This document shows positions 14,316 through 58,546 of a DNA stretch of 64,000 bases, in pieces. The notes under the pieces were generated by a model. It did not search any database, was not told where the DNA came from, and saw nothing but the letters and a program-made list of their open reading frames with translations. The translations under genes were made by a program, and so were the position numbers. The stretch is from Naegleria gruberi (Eukaryota), in NCBI GenBank assembly GCA_000004985.1, contig GG738857.1. One strand, given 5' to 3'. Every line of letters starts with the position of its first letter. Position 1 is the first letter of the stretch.

Positions 14316-14386
14316 TCGGGTGTGGTATAGTGGTAGCATTCCAGACTGTCACTCTGGCGACCCGGGTTCAATTCCCGGCACTCGAG
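14316..14386 (+). tRNA. tRNA-Asp (anticodon GTC)
   Basis: Hand-folded cloverleaf. Acceptor TCGGGTG/CACTCGA (one G-U pair). D-arm GTATAGTGGTAGCAT. Anticodon stem CCAGA/TCTGG with loop CTGTCAC, anticodon GTC. T-arm CCGGGTTCAATTCCCGG. Discriminator G. Confidence 0.8.
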
Positions 14387-15055: not shown

Positions 15056-15067
15056 CTTATATTCATT
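15056..15067 (+). promoter_or_regulatory. Conserved TATA-like upstream element CTTATATTCA(T/A)T at -29..-18 of 5S rRNA copy 1; identical element and spacing at 17024..17035 for copy 2
   Basis: The same 12-mer sits exactly 17 nt upstream of both 5S genes, while the rest of the 5' flanks diverge. A -25/-30 TATA-like box is a known requirement for 5S Pol III transcription in several eukaryotes. Confidence 0.45.
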
Positions 15068-15084
15068 GTGTTTGGGAAATGAAT

Positions 15085-15202
15085 GGCTACGGCCATATCA
15101 CGATGAATGCACCTCATCCCGTCCGATTTGAGAAGTTAAGCATCGTCGAGCCACATCAGTACTGAGGTTGGAGACAACTTGGGAACCTGTGGTGCTGTAG
15201 TC
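15085..15202 (+). rRNA. 5S ribosomal RNA gene, copy 1 (118 nt), followed by a T5 Pol III terminator
   Basis: GGCTACGGCCATA...CATCCCGTCCGATTTGAGAAGTTAAGC...AGTACTGAGGTTGGAGACAACTTGGGAACCTGTGGTGCTGTAGTC matches the eukaryotic 5S consensus. Helix I pairs 5' GGCTAC with 3' GTAGTC. Box-A/box-C-like internal regions are present. TTTTT follows. Confidence 0.9.
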
Positions 15203-15368
15203 TTTTTATCTTTATGGAGAGTTTGTTCATTTACAAGTAAGTTTAACGATGATTAATCTGTCTTTGGAAAGAGGTTAATGAAAGGAAGAAGTTTTGTTTG
15301 ATATTAACAATATTGGAAGCTTGTTTTTATTGATTCATTACAATATTGAGTACTGCCATTTTAAACAA

Positions 15369-15905: not shown

Positions 15906-17052
15906 TTTGATATAAAGTTTGTTGAGGAGTTTTCAGATACAATCCAATATTGAATATTGTTTTTTTGTGTTGTTTTTATCATAAAGAATGGTCAATTGGA
16001 ATTTATAGAAATTTTATTGTGTAAGATTACAATATTTACAATGGAGTTTAATAGAGTCAATGGTTTTCTGAGAATTGAATTGGTTGAACATTTGTGGAAC
16101 AACCTTATTGAGAAGTCAGTAAGAGGAATGGTAACACCTCAGTATCATCTAACTATCGAATAGAACTCAACACAATTGGATATGAATAAAGGGAGGATAT
16201 TAGTTTACAATATTCTCATTTAACAGTCCTGATCGAGTTGCTTAAAATAATTAGTTGGGAACTCATTGTAACTTTTGGAACCACCAAAACGAAAAAAAAC
16301 TACATGGACATGTAAACACGCTCTCATGCAACATGCATGAATGGAAGTTGTCTTATGCCTATCAAAGTTAATATGAACCCAAAAATCTTCATTTCAAACA
16401 GGAATTCGTAATAGAACAAATTACGATTATGATTCAATATTATGAGGACGAATAAGCACATTATTACAAAACCTTAATATAGTGATATTCTAAAACTGGA
16501 GAACTAGTTACTTTGGAATGATCAAGGTGAGGAGTAATGTTATTGAAACGGAACGACAATTTATTGATTAGGACGGTTGTTTTGTTGTTTTTTGTCATTT
16601 TCTTTTGTTTATTCATGATTTTCATTAAATCAAAAATGTATCAACTTGTAAATAATTAAGTTGGAGGAATGGCTATTGCAATGCCAAAGGATTTTTTTAT
16701 CATCTTAATTGAAACATTCTACATTATTGCCTAATTTTTAATTTCTAACTACTACATGTTACGCAATTTCAAAGGCAATACTAAACTTCAAAGTGTTACC
16801 TCATCTTGGATGCTTGCAAACTGATAGCAAATAATGCTCAATTGAGAGTTGGTGTTTGGAATTTGTTTTGTAAAGACTTTGGAAAAGTTCAATATTTTCA
16901 CCTCTACTCTTATTTAAATCTTCAGCAGACAAATCATAAATATTTCCCAAAGAAATTTGAGAAGGTTGTTCAAGTGTGTTTCAATTAGGAGGTGTTAATA
17001 TTAACCGGGTTGATGATGTTAGCCTTATATTCAATATATTAATGTAATTGAT

Positions 17053-17170
17053 GGCTACGGCCATATCACTATGAATGCACCTCATCCCGTCCGATTTGAG
17101 AAGTTAAGCATAGTCGAGCCACATCAGTACTGAGGTTGGAGACAACTTGGGAACCTGTGGTGCTGTAGTC
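17053..17170 (+). rRNA. 5S ribosomal RNA gene, copy 2 (118 nt), followed by a T5 terminator
   Basis: Identical to copy 1 except nt 18 G>T and nt 60 C>A. Those two positions are predicted to pair in helix II, so the G:C to U:A change is compensatory. About 100 bp of 3' flank is also conserved between copies (TTTTTATCTT...CATTTACAAGT...AAGTTTAAyGATGATTAA...GTCTTGAAAGGAAGA). Confidence 0.9.
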
Positions 17171-17284
17171 TTTTTATCTTTTGAAACATCAAACATTTAC
17201 AAGTTCAAATTAAGTTTAATGATGATTAAGGTTTAAGAGTCTGTCTTGAAAGGAAGATGATGAAGATTATTTCTCTAAGAAAAA

Positions 17285-33009: not shown

Positions 33010-34035
33010 TTATTGATTCGAATGGTTTCTAAAATAAAAATCAATGTAATGCATTCGTAAATCTGTGGTGGGATGTTTCTTCTTGAATTGCTTGGCAAAT
33101 GATATTGCTTCACTCTCTGAATAATAGCAACAATAAAGTTCCAAATATTCTAAATTTTTGAGGTATGGACAATTGAGAATGCAATCTAACCCATTACCTT
33201 TCAATCCATTTCCACTCAGTTTTAATTGTTTCAAATTTCGAATATTTGTATTGGACATTGGCTTGGTCAAATCACTAATGACATTTTCACACATATCCAA
33301 ATCAGTAATATTTGAAAAGTGTGTGGAATTAACCATTGAATCAAAACCATTACTCCAAATAAAGTTACGTTTAAGATATAGAGTATCAAGTTTACAATAT
33401 TTCGAGTTCAATACTTGTTCTATTCCTATTTTAATAGTATTTAAAGAAGCATCTAAATATCTTAATTTTGTTAAATATTGACTATCTAAATAAGAAATAT
33501 TTCCAATATAATTATGTGAAATTGTTAACTCTTGCAAATTAGACATGTATTCACTCTTTCCTAATTGTTCCACAAACTCTGATTGTAAATAATTCCATCC
33601 CAATTTTAATACTTGCAAATAACTCATCAATTCACTCTTTACAATAATAATTGCTCCTCTATTTCCAATTTTCTGTCCATTCAAATTCAAACATGTAATA
33701 AATTTAAAACTCTGACATTTAACCAATAATTTACATCCTCTTCTTCTAATTGGTTTTTCATAATTATGCACATCTAATAAACTAATATTTAAATGTTGAT
33801 CTTTAAATAATAAATCACTTTTACCCCAAGTTTTTAGAAAATCAATTTTCAATGCATGTAAAGAAACTGCTTTATAAAAGCCTTTGGAAATTAATCGACA
33901 ATTTTGAACAATACTTCGATCGGGAAGAAATTGTAATATTATCATACAAATATCAAAATACCAATGATGATGATTATTTGATGATGAGGATTTCCTTTCG
34001 GAGGATGTTTCAGTAACTAATTGACTATTCATCAT
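33010..34035 (-). CDS. F-box/LRR-repeat protein
   Basis: N-terminal F-box (WYFDICMIILQFLPDRSIVQNCRLISKGFYKAV) followed by RNI-type leucine-rich repeats (LNLNGQKIGNRGAIII...LKLSGNGLKGNGL). Confidence 0.7.
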   Translation of the reverse strand: MMNSQLVTETSSERKSSSSNNHHHWYFDICMIILQFLPDRSIVQNCRLISKGFYKAVSLHALKIDFLKTWGKSDLLFKDQHLNISLLDVHNYEKPIRRRGCKLLVKCQSFKFITCLNLNGQKIGNRGAIIIVKSELMSYLQVLKLGWNYLQSEFVEQLGKSEYMSNLQELTISHNYIGNISYLDSQYLTKLRYLDASLNTIKIGIEQVLNSKYCKLDTLYLKRNFIWSNGFDSMVNSTHFSNITDLDMCENVISDLTKPMSNTNIRNLKQLKLSGNGLKGNGLDCILNCPYLKNLEYLELYCCYYSESEAISFAKQFKKKHPTTDLRMHYIDFYFRNHSNQ

Positions 34036-48187: not shown

Positions 48188-50800
48188 ATGAAACGTAGTT
48201 TTGAACATTTTTCTTCAGACTCTCTGACTAGTACTTCAAGTGGTCATTCCCAAGCCTCTGCCGTTGTTCCTTCATCAGCAACAACTTCAGTTGTTAGTAA
48301 TGGTACCAATAGTAGTAGTACAAGTTCTTTTGAGAGTATTGTTGTTGGAGAACATTCTCCCACATCCATTTCCTCTAAAAATCCATCCAATGGTCTCTTT
48401 TTGATTCCTCCAACAATATCCACGTCGTCGAGTCTCTCAAGCCAAAGCTCAAGTACTGCTTCCGCCTCCTCTTCTCCACTCAGCCCACCCAAACTAACCC
48501 AACAATTGTTTAGTAATGCTATTTGTCAATTACAATCTGTCATTGCCAATAGTACCACTCCAAGTCTGTTCTATCAAAATGCAATTAGACAAATCCTTGC
48601 CTCAACCTTCCCTCAAGTGTACTCTAGTAATAATAATATTAGTCGTTTGCCTCCAACTACTGTTCCTTATCACCACCAAGTGACTGTATCCGTAATACCC
48701 TCTACAAATACCACTACGACCAACAATGGTAGTAGTAATACTAATAACCTTGTAAGAAAAGACACAAACAACTCATCCAATTTTGGAGTTTCTCCAACAC
48801 CTTCTAGACTTTCCCTCTCATCCCAAAACAGAAAATCCTTTCAACAATCATCATCCCATTCCCATAATACAGAAGTTCAACCAGCCAAGAGGGTAAAACT
48901 GACAACTCTAACACATCATATTAGACCTTTACCTTACTGTATAAAACTTCTTATATTGAGTTATATTGAATTACCAATCTTACAATATGTAGAGTTTAGA
49001 GAACTGCCTCACCCATTCAACATTTCCCAAATGGATCATACTATCAAATTAAGAAGGCAAATGACCAAACTAATCTATGGCTATTTTAGTACAGATGTAA
49101 CAAGGAGCATCCACTTACTGTTTTCATGCATCGACTATACAACACATTGCCAAGATTCAACTCACAACCACCACAATTTGAATGATGCACTTTCTGAAGG
49201 TAGTACTAACAGTGGTAATTCCAACAGTATACGGTCTCCACCTCAATCAAGCTTTTCACATTGTCCTCTAGAGACGATCAAACTTTCAGACAAACTTGAT
49301 ATGATAATGTTTAGAAGTAAAAAGTTTGTATCGTTGAGGTTTTCAGATTGTAACCTCAGAGGTGAAGAGATGAAATGTTTGTCCAAGCAAGGTGATTGCA
49401 CAAGAATAACCCATCTCAAGACTATTGATCTGAGTAAGAACCACAACTTTTCCACAAACTCCTTTAAACATTTCCTCTCTTTCCCAGATAATAACGATAT
49501 TCCAGCCACTTATCCTAATCTAACTTATTTAAATTTACTAGAAACATCTACAGACGCTTCCTGTATTTCATTGGCTTGTAAAGCTTTCCCAAAGCTTCAA
49601 ATTCTTAAACACTCTTTCTCAAGTGAACATGTTGTAGAATACAATAGTTGTGTGAAAGCACTGGCTTCTCTCACCCACCTACAACAACTCCACTTGGAAT
49701 GTACCTCTGGCTATTATGAAATGAATATGAAAGAGTTGTTACAAAGCAAGTCTTTAAAGAAGATTGCCCTCTTTGGTTTCCAATTCTCTGATAACAATGT
49801 TAATATTAATGCCTTCAGATACAATGAGTCACTAAAGAAGCTTTCCTTGACCAATTGTTTCATTGCCACCAATAGAGAAAAAGTTGCAGAGTCTATCTCA
49901 AGCAGTACCTCCATTAGAGAATTGATCTTCTCTGAGATTAATCTTGAGAACTCTGATATTCAACTCTTCTCTGAGAGAATGGACAAACTCCAAACACTTA
50001 TCATTGGTGGTTCTGATGCTTTCCACATGAATACAACTGGATTCACAAACTTCCATATGTTGAAAGGGTTGCAAAAGTTCGTCATTGATGGCTTTAGTGA
50101 CTATTGTACACTTAACTTTGAGACTTGTAAGGCATTCTGCCTTTCCAATCTCACTTTCCTTGAATTAGATGGATTCCAAGAGGCTGATGACTCATACCTT
50201 GCTCTCATGCTTAGACAAGGTGTCAACTTGAAGGCTTTAAAGGTCAAGCAAACAAAGATTAATTGTAGAGACAATGCTCTGGCTGACGCTCTCAGAAACC
50301 ACAAATGTTTAAGACATTTGAAGCTTGATGAAAATGAAGCTATTGGTGATGCTGGTGTCTTATTTTTGAATAATAATCTTCCATCTTCACTGGTCAAACT
50401 TGGTTTAACAATGTGTAATATTAGTGATATTGGAGCTAAAGCTCTCCTTGCTAACAAGCAAATTAGAAAATTGAAAGTCAAAATGAATAATATCACTGAT
50501 GAATCTCTCAAGTTGTTAAAGTTTAACACAAGTTTGATTTACATTAGTATTGATGCCCTAAGAAGTGAAGAAATGGTTAGAATTATTGGAGAAGACAACA
50601 AGACACTGAAGCAACTCAGTGTTATCAGCATTCCAGTAACTGAGACAACAATTGAAAGCCTTACAAAGAACACCTCTTTACACTATTTAAAGATTAAGAA
50701 CTGTGACCACTTGAACAGAGATTTGAAACAAAGATTGATTGATCGTGCCTCTTTTGGAGTAATCTTTAGAGGTATATTCTCAGAAGAAGCATTCCTATAG
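48188..50800 (+). CDS. Leucine-rich-repeat (RNI-like) protein with an S/T-rich N-terminus (870 aa)
   Basis: Single ORF. The C-terminal half is RNI-type LRRs (LKHLKLDENEAIGDAGVLFL, LGLTMCNISDIGAKALLAN, LKVKMNNITDESLKLL). Confidence 0.65.
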   Translation: MKRSFEHFSSDSLTSTSSGHSQASAVVPSSATTSVVSNGTNSSSTSSFESIVVGEHSPTSISSKNPSNGLFLIPPTISTSSSLSSQSSSTASASSSPLSPPKLTQQLFSNAICQLQSVIANSTTPSLFYQNAIRQILASTFPQVYSSNNNISRLPPTTVPYHHQVTVSVIPSTNTTTTNNGSSNTNNLVRKDTNNSSNFGVSPTPSRLSLSSQNRKSFQQSSSHSHNTEVQPAKRVKLTTLTHHIRPLPYCIKLLILSYIELPILQYVEFRELPHPFNISQMDHTIKLRRQMTKLIYGYFSTDVTRSIHLLFSCIDYTTHCQDSTHNHHNLNDALSEGSTNSGNSNSIRSPPQSSFSHCPLETIKLSDKLDMIMFRSKKFVSLRFSDCNLRGEEMKCLSKQGDCTRITHLKTIDLSKNHNFSTNSFKHFLSFPDNNDIPATYPNLTYLNLLETSTDASCISLACKAFPKLQILKHSFSSEHVVEYNSCVKALASLTHLQQLHLECTSGYYEMNMKELLQSKSLKKIALFGFQFSDNNVNINAFRYNESLKKLSLTNCFIATNREKVAESISSSTSIRELIFSEINLENSDIQLFSERMDKLQTLIIGGSDAFHMNTTGFTNFHMLKGLQKFVIDGFSDYCTLNFETCKAFCLSNLTFLELDGFQEADDSYLALMLRQGVNLKALKVKQTKINCRDNALADALRNHKCLRHLKLDENEAIGDAGVLFLNNNLPSSLVKLGLTMCNISDIGAKALLANKQIRKLKVKMNNITDESLKLLKFNTSLIYISIDALRSEEMVRIIGEDNKTLKQLSVISIPVTETTIESLTKNTSLHYLKIKNCDHLNRDLKQRLIDRASFGVIFRGIFSEEAFL

Positions 50801-52979: not shown

Positions 52980-54727
52980 ATGGTCATTATTTCTGTCAGT
53001 GTTATTTCAAAGGCTGGCAAGCCTCTCATCGCTAGACAATTCCGTGATATTAGCAGAGTTAGATTGGAGGGTTTGTTGAGTGCTTTCCCAAAATTGATGG
53101 ATCCAAAGTCCCAACACACCTTTGTTGAAACAGACTCTGTTAGATATGTATATCAATCATTGGATCAATTATTCCTCGTTTTGATCACTACAAAAACTAG
53201 TAATATTGTTGAAGATTTGGAAACTTTACAATTATTCTCTAGAATTGTATGTAAGATATTATTTATACAACAAACAACAACAACATTGATTAACTTTCAA
53301 TTTATTTGCGGAATTAGATTAAAGATATTTGTTTCTCCAATCAAAGAAACTCTGGAACAGGTATTGGTGAAGAAATTATTAGTGAAAATGCTTTCGATTT
53401 AATGTTTGCTTTTGATGAAATTGTATCATTAGGTTATAGAGAATCTGTATCATTGGGTCAAGTTAAAGATATTCTTAAAATGGATTCACAAGAAGAAAAT
53501 CTCCAAGAAGCTATCAAACAAAGACAAATCGAAAATGCCCAATCACATGCTACAATGAAGGCAACAGAAATTGCTATGCAAATTGCAAATAATGGAGGAA
53601 TTCGTACTGGTGGTATTTCAAGTGCAGATAGAGGTATCGGTTCAAGTGGAGGTTCAAGACCAACAGATGTTTATGTTCCACCATCAAATCAAGGAAAGTA
53701 TTCTGGTATTGGATCAGGATCTCGTGAAACATCCTCTAATGTTACTTCATCTTCGTCATCATCATCAGGAGGCTTACCAGCACAAAATACATCCGATAGA
53801 AAACTTAAGGAACAATCTAAACCAAGCAGTCTTAAACAAATGATTTTGAACAGACCAAATAGTAAGAAAGGTTCTCATTCTTTATTGAATGATCTTGTTT
53901 CTAAGGGAGATATTACTCCAACTATTGCTGAAAATACATCAGTACCAGTTTCAACAAAGATTGAATCTGTTGCTGAACAACAAAAGAAAGTTAAGGTTGA
54001 AGATATTCACTTACAAGTTAAGGAAACTTTACAAGTTGAAACAAATAGAGAAGGTGGATTAAATAGTTTGGATGTTAAGGGTGAAATGCACTTGGCAATT
54101 AACGAAACTGGAAACGGTTTTATCAAAGTTAGACTTGTAAATGATTTGAAGGATGGTTTTGTTTCTAAAATACATCCAAATATTGATAAGAAGGAATTTA
54201 GTGATCAACGTACTCTTGCTTTGAAGAGAACTGATAAACCATTCCCAACAGGTAATCCTCTCAAGATTTTAACATGGCGTTCACAAGGAAACTTTGATGA
54301 ATCTGTTTTACCTTTTACTGTAAATTGTTGGCCAAACCCTTCTGGTGGTGAAACTACAGTCAGTATCGAATATAATTTGCAAGACACCAGTGCAGAACTC
54401 CAAAATGTAACAATTTCTGTACCAATTCCAACAAAGGAAGTATCAGTTGAAAGTGCTGATGTTGGTACTTATAGAGTTGATCAAAAGAATGGAAAGTTCA
54501 TTTGGTCATTCGATTTAATTGATTCTTCATGTGCTAGTGGTAGCATTGAATTTGTAATTAATGAGAGAGCTGATGAATCAAGCTTCTTCCCTGTTGATGT
54601 TTCATTCACCTCTGAATACTCAATGTCAGGAACTGAAATTAGAGATGTTTTATCTGTAACTGATTCTTCTGAACAACGATATTCTGTAGAGAAATCTTTG
54701 ACTGTTGCTGAATATAAGATTGTTTAA
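52980..54727 (+). CDS. copd: Coatomer subunit delta (ARCN1/delta-COP), 2 exons: join(52980..53246,53318..54727); intron 71 nt
   Basis: [85 protein letters not shown]|IKDIC...[18 protein letters not shown] aligns with human ARCN1 (MVLLAAAVCTKAGKAIVSRQF...LFSRVIPEYC...CFDLIFAFDEIVALGYRE). Confidence 0.9.
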
Positions 54728-54844
54728 ATGTTATGAAATTTTGAATAAATTAATGTAATCTCTGTAAAAATCTATTTCGCAGTTTTATCAATTCTCCTTT
54801 TTTATGCTCAACAATCACTCCTCAATACTCAAACAAGATAAAAA

Positions 54845-55318
54845 ATGACTCAAAACGATCATCTAGCAGCAACTTCACTCCAATCATTCAATGAAATTAT
54901 CGGAAATGATCAATTAGTAGTTGTGGACTATAAAGCAGTGTGGTGCCCTCCTTGTCAGGCTTCAAAACCACTCTTCCATAAACTTGCAGCTTCTAAACAA
55001 TATGAAAATGTAAAATTCCTAGTTGTGGATGTTGATGAACAAGGCGAAATAGCTCATCAAGAAGGAATTAGTGCCATGCCAACATTCAAAATATATAGAA
55101 ATGGTAAATTATTAGATACAATGGTTGGAGCCAATTTATATGGAGTAGAATCTTTAATAATCAAACATTTGGGACTTCCTCAAAACGTTGAAAGAGTTCT
55201 CACTGATGAAGATTTCAAACAAATGAGAGGATCTCCACTCAAAAATCCAATTGTTATTGTCATATTATTCATTGCTTGTTTTTACCTGATTAAATTCCTT
55301 GTTAGTAAATTACAATAA
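54845..55318 (+). CDS. Thioredoxin-fold protein with a WCPPC active site and a C-terminal TM anchor
   Basis: VVDYKAVWCPPCQASKP...FLVVDVDEQ...AMPTFKIY is a thioredoxin fold. The C-terminal 25 aa are hydrophobic (PIVIVILFIACFYLIKFLV). Confidence 0.7.
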   Translation: MTQNDHLAATSLQSFNEIIGNDQLVVVDYKAVWCPPCQASKPLFHKLAASKQYENVKFLVVDVDEQGEIAHQEGISAMPTFKIYRNGKLLDTMVGANLYGVESLIIKHLGLPQNVERVLTDEDFKQMRGSPLKNPIVIVILFIACFYLIKFLVSKLQ

Positions 55319-55440
55319 AACAATTTTAAATATTGTTCATCATCATATTAAAAAATAGCTAATAGGAAGAAACAAAATCACGGATTGGTGAACATTGTGT
55401 ACATAATTATAAATAAGAATAGTTTAAGAGAGAAAGTAAA

Positions 55441-56250
55441 ATGTTCATAAAAAAAGGCTTTGTTAATCATAAGAGAATTAGCAAGTTTGGTGGCCAAACC
55501 AGAACATTGAACGGAAATATTAAAACAATAATAGGAATGTTAGGAAATAATAATCCATCATCAATTAATTATTTGGAAAATAATTTATCAGCAACAAGAC
55601 AATTTTCGAAAAGTAATAATTTAAAATCTACTACTTCTCCTTCCAGTGATGCTGCTGATGATTCATATTTCAATATTTCAGTTCAAATTAATCAGGATGG
55701 TATTCTGTTTAAGGAATATCCATTTGCACTGAGTAGTGTAGGAAGAGGAAATTCAATTGTTCCATTTCAAGCAATTCGTGAATTTATTCTTGATGATTCA
55801 AATCATGCAGAGATTAGAACACATAATAATGAAATTCTCTTTATGAGATGTGATTTTAATATTGAGGATTTGAAAAAAACAAACATTCCAATATATACAA
55901 GGCAGTCTATTGATCTGTGGTCAGATATTACTGAACCGTTCTTGGATTCGAGCGTTCCTCAGGTTGAAGAGAAAGTGGAACAATTAATTTCTAGATATTC
56001 AATTTCTAGAGAGGAATGTGAAAAATTATATTCAATTATTTCAGAGCCAGTGTTTGCCTACAATTTTGAAACCATGCTATGGGAATATGTTTCTTTGGAT
56101 TTGGTTGATGTATTGTCATCTTTGGATAAAAATTGTCCTCTCTCTCAAAAACCATTATCAGAAGAGAAATTTAAAGAGTTTTACAATTATGCCAATAATT
56201 TTACACTGAAATACGAAAATAGAAATGATTTTACAAAGTATACGGAATAA
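55441..56250 (+). CDS. Hypothetical protein (269 aa); its last 110 bp plus 3' UTR are duplicated at 57417..57580
   Basis: ORF with ATG start. No domain recognised. Confidence 0.5.
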   Translation: MFIKKGFVNHKRISKFGGQTRTLNGNIKTIIGMLGNNNPSSINYLENNLSATRQFSKSNNLKSTTSPSSDAADDSYFNISVQINQDGILFKEYPFALSSVGRGNSIVPFQAIREFILDDSNHAEIRTHNNEILFMRCDFNIEDLKKTNIPIYTRQSIDLWSDITEPFLDSSVPQVEEKVEQLISRYSISREECEKLYSIISEPVFAYNFETMLWEYVSLDLVDVLSSLDKNCPLSQKPLSEEKFKEFYNYANNFTLKYENRNDFTKYTE

Positions 56251-56308
56251 TTTTGGATCAATGATAAAGGAATTTATGACCGAATTAGATGCTTATTTGT
56301 TTTTATTA
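56139..56308 (+). repeat. Direct repeat copy A (about 170 bp: 3' end of gene 55441..56250 plus downstream); copy B at 57417..57580 (about 92% identity, 7-bp deletion)
   Basis: TCTCTCAAAAACCATTATCAGAAGAGAAATTTAAAGAGTTTTACAATTATGCCAATAATTTTAC...GTATACGGAATAATTTTGGAT.AATGATAAAGGAATTTATGA occurs twice, flanking the F-box/LRR ORF 56401..57364. Confidence 0.85.
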
Positions 56309-56400
56309 TTATTTAATATATAAGTGAATGGAACCAATTAACAAATCTTAATATTAGTGGTAATTGGATTTGTATTATTTATGGTGAGGTTGGGTGTGTC

Positions 56401-57364
56401 TTGATAAGGGTCGTAATTATGACAATCTTCCCTCAGGAATGTCATAACACCACCCAGTTCAGTTTTGAACCCAGTAAAGAACAGTGTAAAAAAATGGAAC
56501 AACATAATTCATCAATTATTTTGTCTGATGATATTGTTAATGAAATTCTATCTTTCTTTGATGATTTTAAATTTCTAATCATGAATTGTTCATTAATTTC
56601 TAAACAGTGGTATAATATTATATTATCAACATGTTATCATCTTTCGTGTAAATGTAATAACAAACTTGAATTGAATGGAGAATTTTTACAAAATATTTCA
56701 TCATTAGAAATTGTTAAAGTTACATTGTTTGGTGATTTAAAATTAATTTGTCAATTGAAACAATTAATAAGACTCAATATTTCTAATAATAACATTGATA
56801 GTGAAGACGCTAAATATCAGTGGTCAATTAAAACAATTAACTAGTCTTGATATTTCTAGCAATGCTATTGGTAATGAAGGTGCCCAATATATAAGTGAAT
56901 TGAAACAATTAACATATCTTAATATTAATTGTGCATGGATTGATATTGAAGGAGTTAAATATATTAGTAGTCAATTAAAACAATTAAACCATCTTGATAT
57001 CAGTTATAATAATATTGGTATTGAAGGAGCTAAATATATTAGTGAATTGAAACAATTAACAAATCTTAATATTTCTGATAATAGTATTGGTATTGATGGT
57101 GCTCAATACATTGGAGAATTGAAACAATTAACATATCTTAATATTGGTTCTAATAATATTAGTGATGAGGGTGTTAAATATTTTAAAGAATTAAAACAAT
57201 TAACTCATCTTAATATTTCTGACAATAATATTAGTGATGAGGGAGTAAAACATTTTAAGGAATTAAAACAATTGACACATCTTGATATTCGAAAAAATAA
57301 TATTGGTGATGAAGGCATTGAATATTTGTTTCAATTAAAACAATTGACCAAACTTGAAATTTAA
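56401..57364 (+). pseudogene. F-box/LRR (RNI-type repeat) gene carrying a -2 frameshift at about 56817; likely recently duplicated or inserted and disrupted
   Basis: F-box-like N-terminus (LSDDIVNEILSFFDDFKFLIMNCSLISKQWYNII), then 24-aa repeats LKQLTxLxISxNxIGxEGAKYISE. The repeat phase breaks (...NNIDSEDAKY | (at)C AGT GGT = ISGQLKQLTSLDISSN), giving two overlapping track ORFs (56401..56844 and 56795..57364). The gene is flanked by the 170-bp direct repeats. Confidence 0.6.
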
Positions 57365-57416
57365 TAAAATCTATTTTGAGAGTTTTGTAAGATCATTTTC
57401 ATTCTTGCAACACCAA

Positions 57417-57580
57417 TGTTCTCTCAAAAACCATTATCAGAAGAGAAATTTAAAGAGTTTTACAATTATGCCAATAATTTTACCCTGAAATATGAAATGA
57501 TTTTATAAAGTATACGGAATAATTTTGGATTAATGATAAAGGAATTTATGAAATCTAATTAGATACTTATTTGTTTTATT
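57417..57580 (+). repeat. Direct repeat copy B (duplicate of 56139..56308)
   Basis: See copy A. Its internal 7-bp deletion frameshifts the duplicated coding fragment. Confidence 0.85.
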
Positions 57581-57586
57581 AGAAAT

Positions 57587-58546
57587 CTATGGACTTGATC
57601 CAATAATTTGCATTGTCCAAGATTCGTTTGTTCCAATTGAGCTTGCAAATGAAACATTTCCAGAAGCATCAGCAGAAAGATACTGACCTGTCCATGATTT
57701 GAAAGCATAACCACCAACAGCAGGAACAGCTTCAAACTTTTCCCAAGGACCAATTGCAGTTCTATTATCAGCAATGGTATTATTCTGTTCGCAACACAAA
57801 TAAGTATTCCAATAGGTTTTAAAGGCACGAAGGAAACCATTTCCCCAATCGCTGTTATTGTAAAATGTGAAAGTTTCCCAAATACTTGCAACTGGACGAT
57901 TGGCAACAACTTTACCATTCTCAGAACACAAGTACATTCCATTCGATGCCTTCAAGTAGATGATTAACCAGACTTCAATACCACGTGGAACTCTTTGGAA
58001 AGCATTTTGAGTGATGAATGAGGAAGTGACCTTTGCAGATCTTTGATTATTAAAGAGAGTGTTAAAGTCAACTGTGATTAACTTGGATTGAATGTTGTGT
58101 AAATGATCTCTCTTGTCAACACCAGTTGTAATTGGACCTTGATAATCGATGTGAACATGATTCAAACCACCACTCTTGATAAAGAGATAAGCATTGACGT
58201 AGTTTTTAATACTGACAACCTTGAGACGTTCTTGGTCAACTAAGATTAACATATGCCTAAGATTTTGATTATTATAACAATATATGTGAAAACTTACTTT
58301 GCTTCGTACTTGTTAATACCCAATCTCTTCATTGCCTTCTTGAATTCTCTTCTTCTCAAGAACCCATTACGATCCAAGTCAACTTGATAATAGGCATTCT
58401 CTGCTTCTTGTGTTAATTGTTGAACTTGATTCATCATTTCAGATGGCTTTAATAATTAGAAAGCGAGACAACAACGGCTAATAACTTACAATTTGGAAAC
58501 CTTCAGGTAACCACTTTGGTTGAGCGTCTTGAACCCAGAATTGCAT
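57587..58546 (-). CDS. EF-hand plus C-terminal fascin-like (beta-trefoil) domain protein, 3 exons: join(57587..58256,58298..58446,58490..58546); introns 41 and 43 nt; start could alternatively be the ATG in exon 2
   Basis: Exon 2 encodes an EF-hand loop (YYQVDLDRNGFLRRREFKKAMKRLG). GTAAGT donors at 58489 and 58297 and AAG/TAG acceptors join it in frame to the track ORF 57587..58252, whose C-terminus (GYAFKSWTGQYLSADASGNVSFASSIGTNESWTMQI) looks fascin/beta-trefoil-like. Confidence 0.55.

What the first reader, a model, noticed from the sequence alone, without database searches (positions are those of the whole stretch)
56139..57580. Frameshifted F-box/LRR gene flanked by ~170-bp direct repeats that copy the 3' end of the upstream gene
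The last 110 bp of CDS 55441..56250 plus about 60 bp of its 3' UTR reappear about 1.28 kb downstream (about 92% identity, 7-bp deletion). The two copies exactly bracket an F-box/LRR ORF that itself carries a 2-bp deletion breaking its 24-aa repeat phase. This is the footprint of a recent segmental (tandem) duplication followed by decay, or of an insertion event that generated long flanking duplications. Either way it is a snapshot of birth and death in the rapidly expanding dictyostelid F-box/LRR family.
Basis: seen in the sequence. Interest (0 to 1): 0.55.

Follow-up and report, generated by a model that had tools for sequence, protein, structure and literature searches.

The report
Duplication-flanked F-box/LRR gene insertion in Naegleria
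In the amoeba Naegleria gruberi (not a dictyostelid), a 1.1-kb piece of DNA carrying an F-box/leucine-rich-repeat gene with one 2-bp frameshift sits between two copies of the last ~165 bp of the neighbouring gene; this is a real but ordinary footprint of a small insertion or duplication event.

Summary
R1 (56141-56308: the last 110 bp of CDS 55441-56250 plus 58 bp after its stop) recurs at R2 (57420-57581). The alignment has 154 matches, 6 substitutions and indels of 7, 2 and 1 bp. It is the only dispersed repeat over 100 nt in the window apart from two 5S rRNA genes. Between the copies lie an LRR relic, an F-box/LRR ORF (ATG 56494, stop 57364) and a 55-nt spacer. The ORF has Pfam F-box and LRR_6 hits and is broken once, by a 2-bp deletion after 56817.

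The organism is Naegleria gruberi: the upstream protein is 100% identical to an NCBI N. gruberi protein. R2 next to the convergent FRG1-like gene, with the same 7-bp deletion, is also present in an independent contig from a ~98.4%-identical strain, so it is not a NEG-M assembly artefact.

No close parental copy was found (best paralogs 39-56% aa identity), and the 1,279-bp unit is not tandemly duplicated.

Best reading (about 0.5): a 1.1-kb F-box/LRR cassette was inserted between two tail-to-tail genes, and a ~168-bp flanking duplication kept both 3' ends intact; the frameshift is recent. Main rival: R2 is a copied patch placed beside a resident LRR gene.

Ordinary genome evolution; low interest.

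The parts
55441..56250 (+). Upstream gene ('geneA'), 269-aa ORF of unknown function and no Pfam family. Its C-terminal 36 codons lie in R1.
   Evidence: ORF. It is 100% identical to NCBI N. gruberi 'predicted protein' P0088 over all 237 aa of that model, and 46-48% identical to N. fowleri FDP41_001099 (P0089), with the C-terminus conserved up to '...YEN'. No Pfam hit.
56141..56308 (+). R1: the functional copy of the repeat (110 bp of coding 3' end of geneA plus 58 bp of 3' flank).
56309..57419 (+). The 1,111-bp segment between the repeats (the putative insert): LRR relic, 5' flank, F-box/LRR gene, 55-nt 3' spacer.
   Evidence: No similarity to geneA or to anything else in the window except its own LRR units. 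No terminal inverted repeats. No poly(A) (sequence). No Rfam family. GC is 21-27% against 30-39% in the neighbouring genes.
56315..56376 (+). Isolated LRR-unit relic ('YISEWNQLTNLNISGNWI'), starting about 6 nt after R1. It has no start codon of its own and is in frame with the downstream F-box ORF.
   Evidence: 84-85% identical to the units at 56886 and 57033. Translation.
56494..56817 (+). F-box/LRR gene, part 1: ATG, F-box, linker and first LRR unit, up to the frameshift. As it stands, this frame ends at the stop at 56842-56844.
   Evidence: PF00646 F-box at 24.7 bits, above the cut-off. The N-terminal motif is shared with N. gruberi paralogs.
56817..56819 (+). Site of the 2-bp deletion: 'AAATAT^CAGTGG' where the other units have 'AAATATATTAGT'.
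   Evidence: Unit spacing of 73 instead of 72 nt. The repair restores the 24-aa register and the alignment to paralogs. No GTAAGT...AG intron like those of the neighbouring gene can bridge it.
56819..57364 (+). F-box/LRR gene, part 2: about 7.5 LRR units of 24-25 aa and the stop codon (TAA TAA).
   Evidence: PF13516 LRR_6 at 129.7 bits. Best solved relative is GALA protein 9j7j_A, E = 2.7e-36.
57420..57581 (+). R2: the decayed copy of the repeat. A 7-bp deletion destroys the geneA reading frame. It ends 5 nt from the stop codon of the convergent gene, so it is the sequence immediately downstream of that stop (its presumed 3' UTR).
   Evidence: Present with the same 7-bp deletion in the independent ENA contig L001 (3 substitutions in 162 nt), which ends exactly at 57420.
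57587..58546 (-). Convergent downstream gene: EF-hand plus FRG1/fascin-like beta-trefoil protein in three exons (58546-58490, 58446-58298, 58256-57587), with introns of 43 and 41 nt.
   Evidence: Pfam FRG1/Fascin and EF-hand hits. Exon structure was read from the sequence and matches N. gruberi paralogs P0091 and P0094. The last-exon ORF (221 aa, 57587-58252) is encoded identically in ENA contig L001.

Best explanation
In an ancestor of N. gruberi NEG-M, geneA (+) and the EF-hand/FRG1-like gene (-) lay tail to tail, with about 63 bp between their stop codons. A 1.1-kb DNA fragment was then inserted at this site. The fragment came from an F-box/LRR family locus: a broken LRR unit, about 120 bp of 5' flank, a complete F-box/LRR gene and 55 bp of 3' flank. 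The event duplicated about 168 bp of the target, namely the last 110 bp of geneA plus the inter-stop spacer. Two mechanisms could do this: fill-in of breaks staggered 168 nt apart with capture of the fragment by end joining, or replication template switching (copy R, jump to the donor, jump back to the start of R). The duplication let both flanking genes keep their native 3' ends, which is why such an event could survive in this compact genome. R1 stayed under selection as the C-terminus of geneA. R2 lost its coding function (7-bp deletion; a stop in NEG-M). The inserted gene stayed open and has only recently acquired a 2-bp slippage deletion in a TA run, which truncates it after the first LRR.

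Shown: the anatomy; the reality of R2 in a second strain; the family assignment; the single lesion.

Inferred: the empty-site ancestor, the direction of the event, the repair mechanism and the timing.
For: - Repeat anatomy and significance.
- R2 ends 5 nt from the stop of the convergent gene, and R1's unique right flank becomes LRR-derived within about 6 nt. So R equals 'geneA tail plus whole inter-stop spacer', and everything between the copies is LRR-locus DNA. No coincidence is needed.
- Tail-to-tail packing is normal here: in N. fowleri, geneA and the thioredoxin gene are called 15 bp apart.
- N. fowleri has neither the LRR gene nor R2 at the syntenic locus.
- R1's coding part is conserved in N. 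fowleri, so R1 is the functional copy.
- R2 with the same 7-bp deletion is found in an independent strain that is about 98.4% identical. The duplication therefore predates the strain split and is not an artefact of the NEG-M assembly.
- The ORF is open over 290 codons apart from one 2-bp deletion.
- The two strains differ in non-coding DNA by 18 substitutions and 4 indels per 922 bp, and the R pair has 6 substitutions and 3-4 indels in 168 bp. My rough inference from those rates is about 4-6 indels and 1-1.5 stop codons in a neutral 873-bp ORF of that age. That points to selection until recently.
Against: - No empty site, meaning a strain or close species with geneA directly abutting the FRG1-like gene, was found.
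- No donor was found: the best paralogs are 39-56% identical at the protein level. The rest of the N. gruberi genome could not be searched as DNA.
- There is no microhomology at either junction to support template switching.
- A 168-bp target duplication is far longer than transposase-type TSDs.
- In N. fowleri geneA is inverted relative to all its neighbours. The locus has therefore been rearranged in other ways, and the tail-to-tail ancestor is not directly attested.
- The ORF-maintenance argument is statistically weak (roughly p = 0.005-0.04 under crude assumptions).
Confidence: 0.5

Rival explanations
1. The F-box/LRR gene is an old resident between geneA and the FRG1-like gene. R2 is a 162-bp 'templated patch' copied from 1.28 kb upstream and inserted during repair of a double-strand break just downstream of the LRR gene.
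For: No close parental copy of the LRR gene exists among the annotated proteins, which fits an old resident gene. The R copies are much more alike (96% over ungapped columns) than the gene is to any paralog. Short templated insertions copied from nearby DNA are a known product of break repair (established knowledge).
Against: This needs two coincidences. The donor tract must end about 6 nt before the LRR-derived DNA starts. The patch must land 5 nt from the FRG1-like stop codon, displacing that gene's original 3' flank. N. fowleri has no LRR gene at the syntenic position. No junction microhomology is visible.
Confidence: 0.25
2. The repeat is the remnant of a larger tandem duplication (of geneA, or of a geneA-tail plus LRR unit). 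Most of the second copy was later deleted or overwritten, leaving only R2.
For: Direct repeats 1,279 bp apart are what the first 168 bp of a tandem repeat would look like. The stray LRR relic after R1 shows that LRR DNA has been rearranged here.
Against: Nothing beyond 168 bp recurs. There is no trace of the geneA body or of a second LRR gene. The secondary deletion would have to end exactly at R's edges and 5 nt from the neighbour's stop codon. geneA has no paralog in the databases.
Confidence: 0.12
3. Artefact: the second repeat copy comes from a mis-assembly or merged haplotypes, and/or the 2-bp deletion is a sequencing error in the Sanger assembly, so the gene is intact.
For: The junction between the 55-nt spacer and R2 is attested only by this assembly. 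The ENA contig L001 stops exactly at that junction, and L002 stops 20 nt before R1. No reads or RNA-seq could be examined. A single 2-bp lesion in an otherwise perfect ORF is what an error, or one null allele, would look like.
Against: R2 with its private 7-bp deletion sits next to the FRG1-like gene in an independent assembly of another strain. R1 is confirmed by the NCBI protein and the N. fowleri ortholog. The two copies differ at about 10 positions, so Sanger reads would not collapse or confuse them. Two-base errors are uncommon in finished Sanger consensus (general knowledge).
Confidence: 0.08

Closest known systems
F-box/LRR (FBXL-type) substrate receptors of SCF ubiquitin ligases, here the lineage-expanded N. 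gruberi F-box/LRR paralog family (P0001-P0004, P0009 and others); the LRR type is closest to the 24-residue GALA/CC-LRR (PDB 9j7j)
   Same: An N-terminal F-box followed by 24-aa LRR_6 units. It shares the family motifs 'DDI..EILSF..DF.F....C.LISKQW.N' and 'GQFLQNI'.
   Different: Only 39-56% identical to any known member. The reading frame is broken after the first LRR. Apparently not annotated: no near-identical protein exists in any database searched.
Insertions flanked by long target duplications, produced by repair of staggered double-strand breaks or by replication template switching (FoSTeS/MMBIR-type insertional duplications)
   Same: Direct repeats derived from the single-copy target abut a foreign segment. 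There are no transposon hallmarks.
   Different: No empty site or donor has been observed. No junction microhomology is seen. The mechanism is inferred only.
Transposon or retrotransposon insertions with target-site duplications (DNA transposons, Pack-MULE-like gene carriers, LINE-mediated retrocopies)
   Same: A gene-carrying segment bracketed by direct repeats of target origin.
   Different: The repeat is 168 bp rather than 2-20 bp. There are no terminal inverted repeats, no poly(A) tail, and no transposase or reverse-transcriptase ORF.
Tandem segmental duplication
   Same: Direct repeats about 1.3 kb apart.
   Different: Only 13% of the unit is present twice.

Membership tests
F-box/LRR (FBXL-type) proteins | F-box domain at the N-terminus | tested here: met
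   PF00646 at 24.7 bits (cut-off 20.5), residues 10-46 of the ORF starting at 56494.
F-box/LRR (FBXL-type) proteins | C-terminal array of leucine-rich repeats | tested here: met
   PF13516 LRR_6 at 129.7 bits and LRR_4/LRR_8 hits. Eight to nine units with a 72/75-nt period.
F-box/LRR (FBXL-type) proteins | Continuous open reading frame joining the F-box to the LRR array | tested here: not met
   The 2-bp deletion after 56817 puts a stop at 56842-56844. No plausible intron bridges it.
F-box/LRR (FBXL-type) proteins | Binding to Skp1 / assembly into an SCF ligase | not testable with these tools
   This is biochemical.
N. gruberi F-box/LRR paralog family | Shared N-terminal motif and LRR consensus 'GAKYISEMKQLTSLNIS.N.IGDEG' | tested here: met
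   Alignment A5 with P0001-P0004, P0008 and P0009 at 45-50% identity, with invariant S-K-Q and Q-L..L.I..N columns. The top database hits are N. gruberi proteins.
   geneA is 100% identical to an NCBI N. gruberi protein, and its only other homolog is from N. fowleri. The locus is syntenic with N. fowleri.
Transposable element with target-site duplication | Terminal inverted repeats or poly(A) tail, an element-encoded enzyme, and a short TSD | tested here: not met
   No inverted repeat at the ends 56309/57419. No poly(A). The only ORFs are F-box/LRR. The repeat is 168 bp.
Tandem segmental duplication | Two adjacent copies of the whole duplicated unit | tested here: not met
   Only 56141-56308 recurs. 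The rest of the 1,279-bp unit does not.
Duplication-flanked insertion (staggered break or template switch) | Flanking direct repeats that are a single-copy target sequence in the uninserted state | not testable with these tools
   No empty site was available. N. fowleri is rearranged at this point. JGI metagenome scans found nothing. The N. gruberi genome is not in the contig index.

The most novel reading that the evidence does not exclude
F-box/LRR genes of Naegleria might spread as self-contained ~1-kb cassettes. The mechanism would insert them between genes and create target duplications of more than 100 bp, making it an undescribed mobility or repair pathway behind the family's expansion. 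This locus would be its first caught example.
Probability: 0.05. Interest if true: 0.6.

Novelty: new member of a known kind. Interest (0 to 1): 0.22.

Why it matters
It is a cleanly resolved example of how a lineage-expanded F-box/LRR family gains a new locus in a very compact protist genome. It also shows how duplicating a shared 3' region can let an insertion between convergent genes survive. In addition, it flags two probably unannotated N. gruberi genes. It does not change any general picture: duplication-flanked insertions and young pseudogenes in expanding families are expected.

Tried and rejected
- Intron bridging the frameshift: rejected. The neighbouring gene shows that real introns here are 41-43 nt with GTAAGT...AG. 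The only frame-restoring candidate near 56817 (GTGGTC...TAG, 40 nt) has a poor donor site and would delete half an LRR unit. The 2-bp repair, by contrast, restores the register and the alignment to paralogs.
- Transposon or retrocopy: no terminal inverted repeats, no poly(A), no enzyme ORF.
- Structured RNA or tRNA in the insert or its G+C-richer patch at 56383-56470: no Rfam hit at E <= 1, no tRNA, fold z-score -1.1.
- The bacterial promoter/terminator scan is not applicable to a eukaryote.
- Exact-protein look-ups for geneA, P0088, P0023 and the two LRR ORFs found nothing. The N. gruberi assembly is therefore not readable here, and the middle of the locus could not be recovered from the second strain.
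- Two scans of JGI metagenome contigs with degenerate patterns for the geneA C-terminus and for the FRG1-like protein found nothing.
- R2 arriving together with a paralog of the FRG1-like gene: unlikely. The nearest paralog is 72% identical at the protein level while R1/R2 are 96% at the DNA level, and geneA has no paralog.
- Do other LRR genes carry flanking repeats? The two other LRR-containing ORFs in the window do not. Of three homolog loci fetched, only L007 does (115 nt, 83%), and that contig is bacterial with an intergenic repeat, so it is not comparable.
- Literature searches found nothing specific on Naegleria F-box/LRR expansion or on project PRJEB11402.

Full report
**1. Observation**

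The repeat is present as described. The repeat finder reports three collinear blocks: 56141-56218 with 57420-57497 (97%), 56215-56279 with 57487-57551 (92%), and 56283-56303 with 57557-57577 (95%). BLASTN within the window joins them into 56141-56308 against 57420-57581, E = 6e-62, with no third copy.

A global alignment has 154 matches, 6 substitutions and indels of 7, 2 and 1 bp. That is 96% identity over ungapped columns and 90.6% over all columns. The first 64 nt are identical, and all differences lie in the remaining ~100 nt.

R1 is the last 110 bp of ORF 55441-56250 plus 58 bp after its stop. A self-comparison of the whole window shows only one other dispersed repeat over 100 nt. That one is a pair of 5S rRNA genes. 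The repeat is therefore far beyond chance and unusual for this stretch of genome.

**2. What lies between the copies**

The 1,111 bp from 56309 to 57419 contain four elements.
- An isolated LRR-unit relic at 56315-56376 ('YISEWNQLTNLNISGNWI'). It is 84-85% identical to the units at 56886 and 57033.
- About 117 bp of unique sequence.
- An ORF starting at ATG 56494, with a Pfam F-box (24.7 bits, cut-off 20.5) followed by LRR_6 repeats (129.7 bits).
- A 55-nt spacer after the TAA TAA stop at 57364.

LRR units start every 72 or 75 nt, except for one step of 73 nt. At that point the sequence reads AAATAT^CAGTGG, where sister units read AAATATATTAGT. Restoring two bases after 56817 gives a 290-aa protein in perfect 24-aa register. 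This protein aligns through the lesion with N. gruberi paralogs.

Real introns in the neighbouring gene are 41-43 nt with GTAAGT...AG. No such intron can bridge the lesion. A 2-bp deletion in a short TA run is the parsimonious reading.

The segment has no terminal inverted repeats, no poly(A) tail, no other ORF with a family hit, no Rfam or tRNA match and no notable fold.

**3. Organism and family**

The upstream protein is 100% identical over all 237 residues to an NCBI 'predicted protein [Naegleria gruberi]' (P0088). Its only other homolog is N. fowleri FDP41_001099 (P0089, 46-48%). The window is therefore N. gruberi, not a dictyostelid.

The repaired F-box/LRR protein finds N. gruberi predicted proteins first (39-56% identity; at least 11 of them at E <= 1e-23). 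N. lovaniensis and N. fowleri proteins rank lower. It shares the family's N-terminal motif and LRR consensus. The closest solved structure is a GALA-type LRR protein (9j7j_A, E = 2.7e-36).

No protein more than 56% identical exists in the 5.8-billion-protein database. So neither this gene nor a recent parent is annotated anywhere.

**4. Independent support for the repeat**

Two contigs of an ENA metagenome assembly (ERZ929261) come from a strain about 98.4% identical to the window.
- L001 covers 58975 down to 57420 and contains R2 next to the FRG1-like gene. It has the same 7-bp deletion and the other R2-specific changes, and differs from NEG-M R2 by 3 substitutions in 162 nt.
- L001 ends exactly at R2's left edge, which suggests an assembly-graph branch there.
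- L002 covers 54455-56121 and stops 20 nt before R1.

R2 is therefore real and older than the split of the two strains. What lies to the left of R2 in the second strain could not be recovered.

**5. Surroundings and comparative context**

R2 ends 5 nt from the stop codon of a convergent three-exon gene (57587-58546, minus strand). That gene encodes an EF-hand plus an FRG1/fascin-like domain. R2 is thus the sequence immediately downstream of that stop, which I take to be its 3' UTR.

The N. fowleri locus is collinear: PIG-P, Rcd1, AP mu subunit, thioredoxin, geneA, then a BTB gene. It differs in four ways.
- It has no F-box/LRR gene at this position.
- It has no FRG1-like gene at this position.
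- It has an unrelated 203-aa gene there instead.
- geneA is inverted relative to all its neighbours, with its gene call ending 15 bp from the thioredoxin gene call.

The C-terminal residues encoded by R1 are conserved in N. fowleri up to '...EN'. R1 is therefore the functional copy and R2 the decayed one.

**6. Mechanism**

*Best model (confidence about 0.5).* geneA and the FRG1-like gene were once tail to tail, about 63 bp apart. A 1.1-kb fragment of an F-box/LRR locus was inserted there, and the last 168 bp of the target were duplicated. The cause was either fill-in of staggered breaks or replication template switching.

This model explains three things without coincidence.
- R equals the geneA tail plus the entire inter-stop spacer.
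- LRR-derived DNA begins within about 6 nt of R1's end.
- Both flanking genes kept their native 3' ends.

*Main rival (about 0.25).* The LRR gene is an old resident, and R2 is a 162-bp patch copied from 1.28 kb upstream during break repair. This fits the absence of a close paralog. It needs two positional coincidences and displaces the neighbour's 3' flank.

*Other rivals.* A larger tandem duplication followed by precise loss (about 0.12) is disfavoured, because nothing beyond R recurs. An assembly artefact (about 0.08, including the separate chance that only the 2-bp lesion is an error) is disfavoured by the second strain.

**7. Age and 'decay'**

Between the strains, non-coding DNA differs by 18 substitutions and 4 indels in 922 bp. 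Coding DNA differs by 14 substitutions in 2,301 bp. The R pair has 6 substitutions and 3-4 indels in 168 bp, and most of these are shared by both strains' R2. The duplication is therefore roughly two to three times older than the strain split (inference).

At those rates, a neutral 873-bp ORF of that age would be expected to carry about 4-6 indels and 1-1.5 stop codons (my rough estimate). It carries one 2-bp deletion and no stop. So the gene was probably maintained by selection until recently. The lesion is young, allelic or an error.

'Birth' is supported. 'Death' is at most just beginning.

**8. Comparison with known things, and verdict**

The gene is a new, apparently unannotated and currently frameshifted member of the N. 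gruberi F-box/LRR family. The structural event resembles known duplication-flanked insertions from break repair or template switching. It fails the tests for a transposon and for a simple tandem duplication.

Nothing here is surprising to a specialist. The interest lies in a tidy example and in a possible genome-wide survey.

The most novel reading not excluded is that F-box/LRR cassettes spread by a dedicated mechanism that makes long target duplications. It has no support beyond this one locus.

Noticed in passing
window 15085-15203 and 17053-17171 (+): Two 5S rRNA genes (Rfam RF00001, 105 bits each) lie about 2 kb apart, close to tRNA-Asp at 14316-14386. They account for the only other long direct repeat in the window (15056-15256 against 17024-17229, 86%).
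   Followed up: yes
window 55441-56250 versus L003 8001-8801: geneA is inverted relative to all its syntenic neighbours between N. gruberi and N. fowleri. Gene order is otherwise collinear (PIG-P, Rcd1, AP mu, thioredoxin, geneA, BTB). N. fowleri also has an extra EGF-repeat gene between the AP mu and thioredoxin genes, and a different gene (203 aa, no Pfam hit) where N. gruberi has the LRR and FRG1-like genes. Which state is ancestral is unknown.
   Followed up: partly
window 57587-58546 (-): The EF-hand/FRG1-like gene has two very short introns (43 and 41 nt, GTAAGT...AG). No 100%-identical NCBI N. gruberi protein was returned; the nearest are paralogs at 72% (P0091) and 53% (P0094). The gene is probably missing from the published gene models, as the F-box/LRR gene appears to be.
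   Followed up: partly
window 56141-56204 and 57420-57483: The first 64 nt of the repeat are identical in R1, in R2 and in the second strain's R2. All ~10 differences fall in the other ~100 nt (roughly p = 0.01-0.04 under uniform rates). Possible causes are gene conversion, constraint on R2 if it serves as the 3' UTR of the convergent gene, or chance.
   Followed up: partly
L001 (end at window 57420) and L002 (end at window 56121): The ENA metagenome contigs of the second strain break exactly at R2's left edge and 20 nt before R1. This suggests an assembly-graph branch at the repeat. It leaves open whether the insert is present, absent or polymorphic in that sample.
   Followed up: partly
window 57415-57504 (+): An ATG created exactly at the spacer/R2 junction (ccaATGttctct) opens a 29-codon mini-ORF in the old geneA frame (MFSQKPLSEEKFKEFYNYANNFTLKYEMIL*). 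This is probably meaningless.
   Followed up: no
window 33010-34035 (-) and 48188-50800 (+): Two further LRR-containing ORFs lie in the window, only distantly related to the F-box/LRR gene (25-32% identity). Neither is flanked by direct repeats.
   Followed up: partly
L007 3832-3946 and 5005-5118: In a bacterial-looking metagenome contig (neighbours TsaD and HemY_N), a secreted LRR protein gene (P0019) is bracketed by 115-nt direct repeats (83% identical) that are intergenic. The geometry is superficially similar, but the context is unrelated.
   Followed up: partly
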